A stretch of DNA of 64,000 bases from a virus (taxonomy: Duplodnaviria; Heunggongvirae; Uroviricota; Caudoviricetes). Location of the stretch: positions 3,851 through 67,850 of IMG/VR virus record IMGVR_UViG_2925908680_000007. The stretch is one strand, 5' to 3'. Position numbers: made by a program. This document shows positions 42,001-45,000 of this stretch, piece by piece (the stretch's first letter is position 1; every line of letters starts with the position of its first letter).

Positions 42001-45000
42001 TGTAATTGAAGCAGCTCTAGCACATAGTGATAAAAATGAAGTACGAAGAGCTTATAACCGCTCAACGTACCTTAATAAAAGAATAGAACTTATGGCATGG
42101 TGGGGAAGGTTTGTTTATAAAACAAACCTTTTATAACTATACTTTAAAGAACTTATTTGTCGAAGATAACTCAAGGATCGAGTTACTCATCATCATTTTC
42201 ATGTCCGCATCTTCTGAAAACTTATCACTTAATATTGACACAATATATTGACCATTTATATTATTTGCTTCAAAAAATATATCTCTAATTTGATTCACAT
42301 CGACATCTTCAATGCTATCATGAATAACAAAAGTAGGTCTCTTTAATTTAATCTTATCCACAAACTTAATATAAGCCAAATCAAATGCAGTTATTTCACC
42401 TTTCTTCTTGCCGCCATTACTGTTTGGTGTAACGCATGATATATCAAAATTACACTTACCTTTATCAACATCAAAGGAAAGATCAAAAATGTATCTTTCC
42501 CCATATATTTCCTTTGTAAGATCACCAAAAAACTCATTGAAAATCTCGATGTTTTTTTCCAGACCTTGAACTGCTAACTCTATTTCTAAAAGTAATTTCT
42601 CTCGACTATCTTCAAGAGATTTTATGAGGGCATTTGTATCATTAATACGCGAAAGATTAGACTCTATGCTAGCAAGATTTTCACGTAATTCAGTAAGCTT
42701 ATTAAATAATTGATTTATAGACTTTAATGTTTCAGGTTCTTTGATTGTTCTAAATAGGGATGATTCTTGTTCATGAAGATCATTGATTTTTTTATTTACA
42801 GTTTCTATTTCTTCTTTTTTCTTTAACAATTCAGATTCTAAAAAACTGATTTTATTCTTAATAATATCATTATGGAACAATACCATTTCTTCGTAAGTCC
42901 TTTTAAGTTCCCCATTAAAATAAATCCCCGCAGAATTATATATTTCCATTAAATCATTTTCTACAAGTTGTGTGATATTATTCTTCAAGGACAAGATCGA
43001 TTCTTCGATATTTCTTACTCGCATATTTAAGGAGGCATAGCTCAAAGAATAATCACTGATATTCTTCTGTATTTCTGAAAGCTTTTTTAAGCTTTCATCA
43101 TGACTATCTTTAAAATCGAAGTTCTTAATATTTCTTTCCGCCTCTGCAATTTCTTTCTTCAGAGGCTTAATCATTTTTGCTAAAACAGTCTCTCTATTTG
43201 GATTCCTGTATGCGGCAAGATATGTCTTTTGTTTTTTTATCTCTTTGTTAAAATCACCTTTTTTCTTTATCAGAGGTAGCCCATTGAACCCAAATAAAAA
43301 CAAGTATAATAGATCATAGACATCAGGAGTCGTATTCCCATGTAAGAAATTAAGCGTTTTCTGCATTTTATCATTCGTGTTTCTAATAAATTTATGCGAA
43401 ACATTCCTCAGTGATGGCTTATCTGTAGTTAACCCAAACACTGCTTGAGCTATAAATTCAGAATATTGTTTCTTATCTACTTCAACATCATTTAAAAAAT
43501 ATTTTGAATTTTTATCATCAATAGATATTATACGTGAAATAACTGCCTTTTTATTTTCTACCGTATTGAAATCCAATGAAAATTTCAAAACATTATTATT
43601 AATTAACGATACAATTTCAGGTATATCTTTTCCAAACTCTGCATCATGATAAATATCATGACCTGATGACATAAATAAATAATCTAAAACACGCGATAAT
43701 GTGGATTTACCTACACTATTGCCGCTATCTTTGCCTGATGTTCTTTTATTTACAATTAGATTCAGACCGTCTTTAAACGTCACCTCTCTTACAAGAGAGT
43801 CATTTTTTAAAATAATAAGTTTATTGAGCCTCATATACTATTCCACCATTTCCATCTAACTCAATTGCGCCGATTATGAAAAGCCAATCTAATGAGTAAA
43901 GAAAAAGATCAAACGATAACTCGAAGATAGAATTTACTAAATCATACAATCGAGATATTTCAATGACCATTGAATCATTACTTTGAAAGATCCTAAGCAC
44001 TACACTTCCAATATATACAGGATTTGCTTTTGGATCCGTATCAATTGTAATCATTTGGATTCTCCAGCACTATACATTCGATAATAGCATAGCTAACAAT
44101 CATACGAATGCCATAATCAATATCTTCCTGTAAAAACTCTGAATCTAAATTAGAACACGAACTAACTGTTTCTTGAGCAGCTCTAATAACATCATCTATA
44201 ATATTATCCGAGTTTTTCCTTATGAGTTCAATGTTAAATGGTTTCTCATAAAGACCATATAATCCCAATGCAGTATTATAATAACCTCTAAACTGTCTTT
44301 TCAATTTGACACTACCATTTAAAATTATAGCATCAAGTGTTTTTATGGATTCATCAACTAGCAGAGCATCTTCTTTATAAAGTTCAGCTACCCATCTGTT
44401 TCTTTTAAGATCATTGAATTCTATTTTAACATCAATATTTGATGCTATTCTGTTTAAGTTTTGCTCGCTACCAACTGAATTAGAAATAATTTCAATTAAC
44501 TTACCAATAACACTGGCTCTTAACATTCTTGGCTGGTTGTTTATATGCACAGGACCAGTATTATTATTGAAATTAACACCAGAACCCATAATTACCCCCG
44601 ATTATCAATATTCACAGGACCATTATTATCTTGAAAATATTGAGAACGCGCTCCTTGATTAATGAAGTTTCTATTAGTTGTAATTTGTACAATCTGGGAA
44701 TTAAGATCATTTATTGTAATGTTAAGTTGTTTTATCTCATTATCTTTCTTGGTTACTTGCATAGTCTGATATATTGCTATACATCCAGAGATCACCCCAA
44801 CAATATATCCAAAGGCACTTACATATTCGTTAGCAAGTAGTGATGCAATCATTTGGAGCTCCATTTCAAGCTGAAAGATTTAAAGTCACAACAATCTCAT
44901 CCTATTAGGGTAGCTAGGATAGCAACTCATGAAGAGTAAATAAATAGGTATTAATCATTATCGTTTACATGATCTAATTCAACATAGATCCACTCATGGC

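What the first reader, a model, noticed from the sequence alone, without database searches (positions are those of the whole stretch)
42137..44864. Four-gene AT-rich operon with an ABC/SMC-like ATPase in the int-psu cargo slot of a P4-like satellite: candidate undescribed defence system
The element from 40937 to about 52470 is P4-like in order and gene sizes. Between its integrase and cos/psu, where P4 carries gop-beta-cII and where P4-like satellites are reported to carry variable anti-phage cargo, sits a minus-strand operon of four ORFs (90, 182, 77, 565 aa) with start/stop overlaps of 2-14 bp. It is visibly more AT-rich than flanking DNA, and the last gene's stop abuts the intA stop with no spacer. 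The 565-aa protein has an ABC/SMC-type P-loop (GNSVGKST), a long heptad-rich middle and a C-terminal FVIHDS...D segment resembling Walker B/D-loop. The 90-aa protein has one N-terminal TM helix, and the 77-aa protein has a hydrophobic C-terminal half. I could not match the set to a named system from memory: it has no TOPRIM/OLD nuclease partner as in PARIS, and no recognisable nuclease, helicase, reverse transcriptase, TIR or cyclase domain.
Basis: partly seen in the sequence, partly recalled or inferred. Interest (0 to 1): 0.85.

Follow-up and report, generated by a model that had tools for sequence, protein, structure and literature searches.

The report
Lamassu variant with split membrane effector
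The four-gene operon in the cargo slot of this P4-like satellite belongs to the known Lamassu (ABC-3C) anti-phage family. It is an untested variant whose missing killing domain seems to be supplied by a separate small membrane protein, linked to the sensor complex by a short shared peptide motif.

Summary
Four co-directional minus-strand ORFs (565, 77, 182 and 90 aa; about 30% GC) fill the integrase-cos/psu slot of a P4-like satellite.

The reading "undescribed system" does not hold at family level:
- The 565-aa protein is a DUF2326/YydD-type LmuB (PADLOC PDC-M68B 1e-45, LmuB 3e-16; SMC/Rad50/LmuB fold).
- The 77-aa protein is ABC-3C middle component 6 (LmuC).
- The 182-aa protein is an LmuA C-terminal docking domain (CTD10) with no effector domain.

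This is a short type II Lamassu. It probably belongs to the "clade O" that Haudiquet et al. (2025) said had "seemingly lost" its effector.

I found three further points that none of the papers I could search reports:
- The 90-aa gene is a conserved fourth component. It sits next to the CTD-only gene in all 22 other loci examined (frameshifted in one), with dN/dS 0.09-0.16.
- It encodes an N-terminal transmembrane helix and a C-terminal Asn/Gly-rich motif.
- That motif matches the N-terminus of the partner LmuA. The motif type co-varies between partners across distant loci (true pairing is the best of 40,320 permutations).

This gene-pair layout mirrors amyloid-signalling pairs such as Bab/Agp. 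The likely mechanism is DNA-end sensing, release and oligomerisation of LmuA, activation of the membrane protein, then abortive infection. Nothing here has been tested experimentally.

The parts
42137..43834 (-). LmuB-like SMC/Rad50-type ABC ATPase (DUF2326/YydD family), 565 aa. It has a P-loop SGNSVGKST, a coiled coil at about residues 186-444, a deviant Walker B FVIHDS and no CxxC zinc hook.
   Evidence: Profile hits: PADLOC PDC-M68B 1.3e-45 and LmuB 3e-16 over nearly the full length; Pfam DUF2326 64 bits against a cut-off of 28.7. AF2 model Foldseek hits: YydD 6e-18, SMC/Rad50 heads, and solved LmuB chains 9ux7_A, 9hqu_A and 9hqx_B at about 1e-8. It is 22% identical (E 6.6e-16, full length) to the LmuB of a P4-borne SMEK Lamassu. 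The Walker B fits the short-Lamassu pattern hhhhD[QSTE].
43821..44054 (-). LmuC, the ABC-3C middle component 6, 77 aa.
   Evidence: Pfam MC6 E 2.7e-13, 50.1 bits against a cut-off of 27.2. RefSeq uses the same name. The called middle gene carries a Pfam MC6 hit in every locus where called genes were returned; in L011-L020 an ORF of matching size and position is present but was not profile-scanned.
44041..44589 (-). LmuA-like adaptor made only of a CTD10-type docking domain, 182 aa, with no effector domain. Residues 27-182 form a helical bundle. Residues 1-26 are unstructured and carry the shared motif.
44533..44580 (-). N-terminal Asn/Gly-rich motif of the 182-aa protein (residues 4-19, GVNFNNNTGPVHINNQ).
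   Evidence: Conserved as GVxFxxNxGPVxIxN across the family. It matches the C-terminal motif of the small protein. It is coil with pLDDT about 62 in the monomer model.
44592..44864 (-). Small single-pass membrane protein, 90 aa (or 86 aa from the ATG at 44852). It is the conserved fourth component and the candidate effector supplied in trans.
   Evidence: It has a TM-like helix. Homologues of 63-122 aa lie directly upstream of the CTD-only gene in all 22 other loci examined; in one of them (L012) the gene is frameshifted. dN/dS is 0.09-0.16. There is no significant profile hit in Pfam, NCBIfam, PADLOC or PDB.
44595..44651 (-). C-terminal Asn/Gly-rich motif of the small protein (residues 72-90, ARSQYFQDNNGPVNIDNRG).
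   Evidence: This is the most conserved part of the protein (QGxKSQYFQxNxGPVNIDNRG). The ungapped match to the partner is FQDNNGPVNIDNR | FNNNTGPVHINNQ. Motif flavour co-varies with the partner across 8 independent lineages, p=2.5e-5. The two DNA copies share about 21 of 27 nt, by my own count on the sequences printed.
44865..45111 (-). Cargo-specific AT-rich leader upstream of the operon, presumed to hold the promoter.
   Evidence: Backbone homology to other P4-like elements starts only at about 45112. The consensus scan found no convincing sigma-70 site on the minus strand here.
40937..42136 (+). P4-type integrase forming the left border of the cargo slot.
45122..45140 (-). P4/P2-type cos sequence GGCGAGGCGGGGAAAGCAC, at the right border of the cargo slot.
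   Evidence: Sequence read. Its identity as cos rests on my own knowledge of P2/P4.
45305..45877 (-). psu (polarity suppression protein), part of the satellite backbone.
   Evidence: RefSeq annotation of the identical locus.

Best explanation
The operon is a short type II Lamassu (ABC-3C) anti-phage system of the MC6/CTD10 branch, carried as cargo in the int-psu hotspot of a P4-like satellite.

Components and proposed mechanism:
- Sensor: by homology with solved Lamassu complexes, a dimer of the 565-aa SMC/Rad50-like ATPase (LmuB) together with the 77-aa LmuC forms a sensor for DNA ends or replication intermediates. This sensor holds the 182-aa LmuA-like protein as an inactive monomer.
- Missing effector: unlike classical LmuA, the 182-aa protein has only the docking domain. 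The N-terminal enzyme is replaced by a roughly 20-residue Asn/Gly-rich motif.
- Effector in trans: I propose the effector function is supplied by the upstream 90-aa protein. It has an N-terminal transmembrane helix, and its cytoplasmic C-terminus carries the cognate copy of the motif.
- Activation: on sensing phage DNA, released LmuA oligomerises and its clustered N-terminal motifs engage the motifs of the membrane protein. The membrane protein then assembles in the membrane and collapses the barrier, giving abortive infection.

Shown here: family membership of three proteins, conservation of the fourth gene, the shared motif, and its co-variation between partners.

Inferred: the physical coupling, the membrane damage, and the anti-phage phenotype.
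For: Lamassu identity:
- LmuB.
- LmuC: Pfam MC6 above the curated cut-off.
- LmuA docking domain.
- Gene order LmuA-LmuC-LmuB with 14-bp overlaps.
- Walker B FVIHDS fits the short-Lamassu pattern, and the 565-aa length is close to the short-LmuB mean of about 600 aa.

Absence of an effector domain:
- No profile hit outside CTD10.
- Family members are uniformly about 182 aa.
- 273 representatives in the profile search are mostly 180-210 aa. The few longer ones carry HNH or SMEK domains, which are known short-Lamassu effectors.
- Haudiquet et al. report a short-Lamassu 'clade O' that 'seemingly lost the effector domain'.

Fourth gene:
- It is directly upstream of the CTD-only gene in all 22 other loci, from Enterobacterales to Vibrio, Crenothrix, Undibacterium and metagenomes with profile E-values of only 1e-15 to 1e-26; in one (L012) it is frameshifted.
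- It is under purifying selection, dN/dS 0.09-0.16.
- It always has an N-terminal hydrophobic helix, a charged linker and a C-terminal N/G-rich motif.
- A classical three-gene SMEK Lamassu in the same P4 slot has no such gene.

Coupling:
- The motif at the small protein's C-terminus resembles the partner's N-terminus in every lineage. The true pairing is the single best of 40,320 permutations. One example is L025: MQQNNGSNSVNYQAENITVN | LQQNNGDNSTNYQAENMTVH.
- A natural 248-aa fusion (P0003) joins the two proteins exactly through the motif.

Defence context:
- P4 hotspot, type I RM neighbours, prophages and satellites.
- Transmembrane proteins are regarded as suicide effectors in several P4-hotspot systems.
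Against: - No experiment exists on this system.
- Two other effector-poor Lamassu variants from satellite defence hotspots (one P4-borne, the other from a satellite with a distant Psu) gave weak or no protection. Domainator's Lamassu-var only reduced T-even plaque size. Syst.5 (LmuBC-SMEK) gave no protection against 28 phages. Both are different systems from this one.
- The LmuB model has low confidence (pLDDT 68.8).
- The small protein has no detectable homology to any known effector.
- A single transmembrane helix could be just an anchor.
- No complex could be modelled, so the interaction between the two motifs is inferred from sequence only.
- Some motif flavours in the permutation test are related (L010 and L023), so the samples are not fully independent.
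- Assignment to clade O could not be verified because the paper's supplementary tables are not held.
Confidence: 0.6

Rival explanations
1. This is an effector-less Lamassu. LmuB2-LmuC-LmuA(CTD) interferes with phage or plasmid replication simply by binding or capping DNA ends or replication intermediates. The small membrane protein only tethers the complex to the inner membrane, where phage DNA enters, or regulates it. No cell killing occurs.
For: Lamassu complexes bind DNA ends directly. The literature describes the clade as having lost its effector. A single transmembrane helix with a short cytoplasmic tail is a typical anchor.
Against: All characterised Lamassu systems need an LmuA effector activity. 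A mere anchor would not need a motif that co-varies with the partner's N-terminus and is the most conserved part of the protein. In classical relatives, HNH and SMEK domains occupy exactly the position that the motif takes here.
Confidence: 0.2
2. The operon serves the satellite's own life cycle or inter-element competition, for example exclusion of helper or other P2/P4-type elements, or anti-plasmid activity as in DdmABC. It is not a general anti-phage defence.
For: It is carried by satellites, prophages and mobilisable elements. The V. cholerae Lamassu DdmABC acts on plasmids.
Against: The same cassette also sits beside type I restriction-modification genes in apparently non-satellite contexts. 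The int-psu slot is a documented reservoir of anti-phage systems.
Confidence: 0.1
3. The shared motif is only a relic of a recent gene split, or of slippage at a duplicated junction, with no function. The small ORF is a decaying fragment of a former LmuA N-terminus.
For: The two DNA copies are about 21 of 27 nt identical (my count). A fusion through the motif exists (P0003). One genome has a frameshifted small gene (L012).
Against: The split form is the rule in very distant lineages, with different motif flavours that still match within each locus. dN/dS is 0.09-0.16. The fusion is a singleton on a 1.4-kb metagenomic contig.
Confidence: 0.04

Closest known systems
Type II (short) Lamassu / ABC-3C systems, e.g. 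V. cholerae DdmABC (LmuACB) and Salmonella LmuACB
   Same: The gene order is LmuA-LmuC-LmuB with overlapping genes. LmuB is an SMC/Rad50-like ATPase of about 600 aa with the deviant Walker B hhhhD[QSTE] and no zinc hook. There is a small globular middle component from the Pfam MC family. There is an LmuA C-terminal docking domain from the Pfam CTD family, whose best structural matches are solved LmuA chains.
   Different: LmuA has no N-terminal enzymatic domain (Cap4, Mrr, HNH, SMEK, Sir2, lipase or protease). That position is occupied by a roughly 20-residue N/G-rich motif. A fourth conserved gene encodes a small single-pass membrane protein with the matching motif. The subfamilies also differ (MC6/CTD10 here, MC3/CTD7 in DdmABC).
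Short-Lamassu 'clade O' of Haudiquet et al. 2025 (PNAS; PMC12663957)
   Same: The description fits: a short LmuB, non-truncated LmuC and LmuB, an LmuA lacking the effector domain, more than 100 sequences in more than 40 species.
   Different: Membership could not be verified because the supplementary tables are not held. The paper does not mention a membrane protein, a fourth gene or a shared motif.
B. subtilis YydD-YydB pair (PDB 9a6c integrative model)
   Same: YydD is the top structural match of the 565-aa protein (E 6e-18). YydB is the top Foldseek match of the 182-aa protein (probability 0.97). One source names the 565-aa family 'YydD (DUF2326 family)'.
   Different: YydB is 481 aa, so it has a large additional part that the 182-aa protein lacks. 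The identity of that extra part was not examined here.
Bab/Agp amyloid-signalling abortive-infection system of E. coli (Ibarlosa et al., bioRxiv 10.1101/2024.11.07.622273) and Bell-domain/NLR BASS pairs
   Same: The genes are adjacent. The small protein (109 aa in Bab, 90 aa here) has an N-terminal hydrophobic helix and a C-terminal motif of about 20 residues. The partner carries the cognate motif at its extreme N-terminus. The systems sit in prophage or defence-island locations. The partner is expected to oligomerise on activation. An acidic residue at position 2-3 is frequent in the small proteins.
   Different: The partner here is an LmuA docking domain of an SMC-type sensor, not a TPR/NLR protein. 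The small protein is shorter than Bell domains and has no detectable homology to them. The motif is not a recognised BASS, HRAM or RHIM family by Pfam. Amyloid formation has not been tested.
PADLOC candidate PDC-M68
   Same: The ATPase matches PDC-M68B at 1.3e-45 over residues 11-542.
   Different: None of the other three proteins matches any PADLOC model, including PDC-M68A. PDC entries are candidates without a described mechanism.
PARIS (AriA/AriB), also found in P4 hotspots
   Same: It has an ABC-type ATPase sensor and occupies the same satellite hotspot.
   Different: There is no DUF4435/TOPRIM AriB partner. The ATPase matches LmuB/DUF2326 profiles, and the solved PARIS chain is only a weak structural match (rank 48).

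Membership tests
Lamassu type II / ABC-3C | LmuB: an SMC/Rad50-like ABC ATPase with a long antiparallel coiled coil between the N- and C-terminal head halves | tested here: met
   PADLOC LmuB 3e-16 (residues 1-533 against profile positions 3-582 of 611) and PDC-M68B 1e-45. Pfam DUF2326 above its cut-off. The AF2 secondary structure shows beta-rich heads and helices 186-444. Foldseek hits are YydD, SMC and Rad50 heads and solved LmuB chains.
Lamassu type II / ABC-3C | Walker A GK[ST] and the short-Lamassu deviant Walker B hhhhD[Q/S/T/E] | tested here: met
   SGNSVGKST and FVIHDS are present, with core residues invariant in alignments A4-A6. The glycine five residues before GK in the canonical GxxxxGK[ST] is a serine here.
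Lamassu type II / ABC-3C | LmuC: a small middle component encoded between LmuA and LmuB | tested here: met
   Pfam MC6 at 50.1 bits against a cut-off of 27.2. RefSeq gives the same name. The called middle gene carries a Pfam MC6 hit in every locus where called genes were returned.
Lamassu type II / ABC-3C | LmuA C-terminal domain (CTD) that docks on LmuB/LmuC | tested here: met
Lamassu type II / ABC-3C | LmuA N-terminal enzymatic effector domain | tested here: not met
   No domain was found in four profile libraries. The protein is 182 aa, and residues 1-26 are an unstructured motif. Published classifications tolerate this feature's absence for 'clade O'.
Lamassu type II / ABC-3C | Protection against phages or plasmids that depends on the LmuB ATPase | not testable with these tools
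   No experiment on this variant was found.
Amyloid-signalling effector/receptor gene pair (Bab/Agp, Bell/NLR BASS, HET-S/NWD2) | Adjacent genes with a short motif shared between the effector's C-terminus and the receptor's N-terminus | tested here: met
   (the true pairing is the best of 40,320 permutations).
Amyloid-signalling effector/receptor gene pair (Bab/Agp, Bell/NLR BASS, HET-S/NWD2) | Effector with an N-terminal hydrophobic helix, often with an acidic residue at position 2-3 | tested here: met
   A hydrophobic helix is present in all small proteins. E or D at position 2-3 occurs in most of them. It is absent if the 86-aa start is used for the window gene.
Amyloid-signalling effector/receptor gene pair (Bab/Agp, Bell/NLR BASS, HET-S/NWD2) | Homology of the effector to Bell, Babybell or HeLo domains, or of the motif to a recognised amyloid motif family | tested here: not met
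   No Pfam hit to any amyloid-motif family (none was among the hits listed at E<=1). No PDB sequence hit. The Bab sequence itself was not available for comparison.
Amyloid-signalling effector/receptor gene pair (Bab/Agp, Bell/NLR BASS, HET-S/NWD2) | The motif forms a self-templating cross-beta fold | not testable with these tools
   This needs peptide fibrillation, ThT or Congo-red binding, GFP-foci assays or multimer modelling.
PARIS | AriB: a DUF4435/TOPRIM nuclease partner of the ABC ATPase | tested here: not met
   No such domain is present in any of the four proteins.
P4 gop-beta-cII | Sequence homology to the P4 cargo genes | tested here: inconclusive
   No DNA match in the phage collection in 'distant' mode. 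I did not confirm that P4 is in that collection, and made no protein-level comparison with gop, beta or cII.
PADLOC PDC-M68 | Both the A and B components are present | tested here: inconclusive
   The B component matched at 1.3e-45. No protein matched PDC-M68A at E<=1.

The most novel reading that the evidence does not exclude
This Lamassu branch may have replaced a covalently attached enzyme with prion-like (amyloid) signalling. In this reading, LmuA released from the SMC sensor oligomerises through its docking domain. That brings its N-terminal Asn/Gly-rich motifs together into a cross-beta template. The template converts the matching C-terminal motif of the small membrane protein and triggers its assembly into a lethal membrane lesion. 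If so, it would be the first SMC/Rad50-type immune sensor wired to an amyloid-signalling effector. It would also be a second, independent amyloid-controlled abortive-infection system in Enterobacteria after Bab/Agp. And it would explain how 'effector-less' Lamassu systems kill.
Probability: 0.3. Interest if true: 0.85.

Novelty: new variant of a known kind. Interest (0 to 1): 0.62.

Why it matters
Lamassu is found in about 15% of prokaryotic genomes. Its current mechanism relies on an enzyme fused to LmuA, and a whole clade without that enzyme has been left unexplained.

A conserved membrane protein coupled to LmuA through a co-varying terminal motif gives that clade a concrete, testable effector. 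It also suggests that SMC-type DNA sensors can signal to separate executioner proteins.

If the coupling is amyloid-like, it would extend amyloid signalling from NLR/TPR receptors to SMC-based immunity. Such signalling is known in fungi and animals, and in one E. coli system.

In practical terms, the cassette is small (about 3 kb including its own leader). It is present in E. coli, Salmonella and Klebsiella satellites, and it can be tested directly.

Tried and rejected
- PDB sequence searches with the 565-, 182-, 77- and 90-aa proteins gave nothing useful. Only structure comparison worked.
- The Krishnan et al. 2020 ABC-3C paper is not held. The supplementary tables of the Haudiquet paper are not held either. 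So neither the original description of MC6/CTD10 nor membership of clade O could be checked.
- I asked whether this is Domainator's tested 'Lamassu-var' (CP038295:4116517-4120474). It is not. That locus has MC2, an LmuB-like ATPase apparently split into 394- and 188-aa ORFs (my reading of the translations), and no transmembrane gene or N/G motif.
- I asked whether this is the P4-hotspot 'Lamassu missing a known effector' tested in bioRxiv 10.64898/2026.02.27.708500. It is not. Syst.5 is a three-gene SMEK-LmuA/LmuC/LmuB system whose LmuB is 22% identical to ours.
- I considered a conserved programmed frameshift or read-through joining the 90- and 182-aa genes. I rejected it because the spacing between the two genes varies from 1 to 4 nt among loci.
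- I considered the 77-aa protein as a membrane protein. I rejected it because it is the MC6 domain.
- The promoter scan of the leader found no convincing minus-strand site.
- The alignment of distant CTD-only proteins was too diverse for a locus search.
- Viral-contig scans with P0151 and P0139 found nothing. The scan with P0241 returned only an unrelated HNH protein.
The final LmuB alignment was therefore shallow.
- Position-by-position correlation of motif changes within the close family was mixed. L003 and L004 change in parallel, whereas L011, L018 and L019 do not. I therefore rely only on the between-lineage test.
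Full report
**1. The observation**

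ORF listing confirms four co-directional minus-strand ORFs:
- 42137-43834 (565 aa)
- 43821-44054 (77 aa)
- 44041-44589 (182 aa)
- 44592-44864 (90 aa)

The first two junctions are 14-bp overlaps and the third is a 2-nt spacer. The stop codon of the 565-aa gene abuts the stop of the convergent integrase (40937-42136). GC is 0.28-0.32 over 42000-45000, against 0.47-0.65 on both sides.

The P4-like frame is real:
- RefSeq annotation of an identical E. coli locus lists the integrase, psu, an ogr/delta-like gene, an Icd-like gene and a primase-helicase.
- The P2/P4 cos sequence lies at 45122-45140.
- Rfam finds a C4/CI-type antisense RNA and isrK at 48.07-48.34 kb.

The operon occurs at 99% identity or more in 28 of 5,426 complete E. 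coli genomes, always between this integrase and psu. In 2,296 genomes only the flanks match, and backbone homology resumes at about window 45112. So 42137-45111 is variable cargo.

**2. What the proteins are**

The 565-aa protein:
- It matches PADLOC PDC-M68B (1.3e-45) and LmuB (3e-16) over nearly its full length, and Pfam DUF2326 above the cut-off.
- It carries SGNSVGKST and FVIHDS..DVD, with core residues invariant in homologues down to 26% identity. It has no CxxC hook.
- An AF2 model is only moderately confident (pLDDT 68.8, shallow alignment). It shows split beta-rich heads and a coiled coil at about 186-444.
- Its best PDB matches are YydD (6e-18), SMC and Rad50 heads, and solved LmuB chains (9ux7_A, 9hqu_A, 9hqx_B).

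The 77-aa protein matches Pfam 'ABC-3C middle component 6' at 50 bits against a cut-off of 27.

The 182-aa protein:
- It hits Pfam CTD10 only weakly (E 0.0042), but 39 of 70 family members hit it, with a best E-value of 9e-7.
- Its AF2 model (pLDDT 82.9) is a helical bundle from residue 27.
- Foldseek's top hit is YydB, the partner of YydD.

The 90-aa protein has no significant profile or PDB match.

**3. Placement in the literature**

Type II Lamassu and ABC-3C are the same thing. LmuB2 with LmuC holds LmuA as an inactive monomer, and DNA-end sensing releases LmuA to form an active tetramer.

Short LmuB proteins average about 600 aa and have the Walker B pattern hhhhD[QSTE]. Ours is 565 aa with FVIHDS.

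[quoted passage not shown] It has more than 100 sequences in more than 40 species. They do not mention a membrane protein or a fourth gene. The present system fits that description, but I could not verify membership.

Two related tested systems are different from this one:
- Domainator's Lamassu-var has MC2 and what I read as an ATPase split over two ORFs. Its only phenotype was smaller T-even plaques.
- The P4-hotspot Syst.5 is a three-gene SMEK-LmuA/LmuC/LmuB system that gave no protection against 28 phages. Its LmuB is 22% identical to ours.

**4. The fourth gene is a conserved component**

Homologues of the 182-aa protein are almost all exactly 182 aa, down to 40% identity.

In five distant loci (Vibrio, Crenothrix, Undibacterium, Azotobacter, Shewanella) the cassette is small ORF - 182 - 77 - 565, with the same overlap geometry. 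Ten species-representative genomes show the same arrangement; in one of them (L012) the small gene is frameshifted.

A profile search of 1.84 billion representatives found 273 relatives:
- Most are CTD-only proteins of 180-210 aa.
- A few carry N-terminal HNH or SMEK domains, which makes them classical LmuA proteins.

Seven much more distant CTD-only loci again have a small ORF directly upstream.

The small proteins are 63-122 aa. They share an N-terminal hydrophobic helix, often preceded by E or D at position 2-3, then a charged linker and a C-terminal Asn/Gly-rich segment. dN/dS of the small gene is 0.09-0.16.

**5. A shared, co-varying motif**

The small protein's C-terminus (…SQYFQDNNGPVNIDNRG) resembles the 182-aa protein's N-terminus (GVNFNNNTGPVHINNQ). 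Both segments are conserved in their families.

In distant lineages the motif differs, but it still matches within each locus:

| Locus | Small protein C-terminus | Partner N-terminus |
|---|---|---|
| L025 | MQQNNGSNSVNYQAENITVN | LQQNNGDNSTNYQAENMTVH |
| L023 | KIDIKNTGTNSGIMSGINAGEM | KMEIDNSGTNQGVMVGNNAGNI |
| L026 | SSGGKNVYTKNLSGGMNV | SEGSRNIVVNNLHGGLNV |

With eight lineages, the true pairing has the highest summed score of all 40,320 permutations, p=2.5e-5. L010 and L023 are related flavours, so the eight samples are not fully independent.

The motif regions are 19% Asn and 14% Gly. In the monomer model the motif is coil with pLDDT about 62.

A 248-aa metagenomic protein (P0003) fuses the two proteins exactly through the motif. 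It is a singleton and may be a deletion between the two DNA copies, which share about 21 of 27 nt by my own count on the sequences printed.

**6. Mechanism**

The best-supported reading is a Lamassu in which the effector has been moved to a separate polypeptide. The small membrane protein is coupled to the LmuA docking domain by the cognate motifs.

Steps taken from solved homologues are DNA-end sensing by LmuB2-LmuC, then release and oligomerisation of LmuA. Steps inferred here are motif-mediated engagement of the membrane protein, membrane damage and abortive infection.

The layout matches amyloid-signalling pairs: adjacent genes, a small protein with an N-terminal hydrophobic helix and a C-terminal motif, and a partner with the motif at its extreme N-terminus. 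The closest example is the experimentally characterised E. coli Bab/Agp system. Bell/NLR BASS pairs are another.

No paper I could search links Lamassu to amyloid signalling or describes a transmembrane LmuA partner. Whether the coupling is amyloid templating or ordinary docking cannot be decided computationally here.

**7. Rivals**

- An effector-less Lamassu with the small protein acting as an anchor.
- A role in satellite or plasmid competition rather than general anti-phage defence.
- A functionless relic of a gene split. Conservation, dN/dS and co-variation contradict this one.

**8. Verdict**

The specific four-gene variant and its split, motif-coupled membrane effector are undescribed and untested in everything I could search. 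I rate it a new variant of a known kind, with an interest score of 0.62.

Noticed in passing
window 40728-40752: A stretch, GGTTCAACTCCCGCCAGCTCCACCA, lies between an upstream integrase (39394-40593) and the satellite integrase. From memory it matches the 3' end of ssrA (tmRNA); I did not compare it with an ssrA sequence. ARAGORN finds no full tmRNA in the window. This suggests tandem integration of a prophage and the P4-like satellite at an ssrA-type attachment site.
   Followed up: partly
window 40876-40886 and 52542-52552: The 11-mer TTAGGTATACG occurs only twice in the window, once just upstream of the satellite integrase and once just beyond the alpha primase. These could be integrase arm-type sites or the ends of the element. 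No repeat of 12 nt or longer was found between the two ends.
   Followed up: partly
window 48073-48150 and 48249-48336: Rfam gathering-level matches to isrK (69 bits) and to C4 antisense RNA (74 bits), presumably corresponding to P4's CI immunity RNA region.
   Followed up: no
window 52180-52480: There are two copies of an approximately 150-nt unit containing GGTGAACAGTGTGAACA and TGTTCACCCTTCACC repeats downstream of the primase. They resemble the P4 ori/crr iterons.
   Followed up: no
P0003 (ENA metagenome contig, 1398 bp): A 248-aa protein is an in-frame fusion of the small membrane protein and the CTD-only LmuA, joined through the shared motif (…GPVNIDN|QPRVLRAS…). It is either a natural deletion between the two similar DNA copies or an assembly artefact.
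   Followed up: partly
L012 5727-5998 (Siccibacter colletis): The small membrane gene is broken into 50-aa and 63-aa pieces by a frameshift, while the other three genes are intact.
   Followed up: no
L007 3200-6475 (E. coli O55:H7 TB182A, Domainator 'Lamassu-var'): This tested ABC-3C (MC2) system also looks split. A 138-aa ORF containing GDKGRD…QCK (which I read as PD-(D/E)xK/Mrr-like) overlaps a 205-aa 'ABC-three component system protein'. What looks like the ATPase appears divided into 394-aa and 188-aa ORFs.
   Followed up: partly
L026 2755-2988 and L023 2757-3005: Some small proteins carry two or three tandem copies of the motif unit (for example SGGGDFNV / SSGGKNVY / LSGGMNVK). This recalls the double and triple repeats described for BASS and HET-s motifs.
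   Followed up: no
L002 1-4217, L003 1-1206: The same four-gene cassette sits immediately next to type I restriction-modification genes (HsdM/S/R) in Crenothrix and Undibacterium. That is a defence-island context independent of satellites.
   Followed up: no
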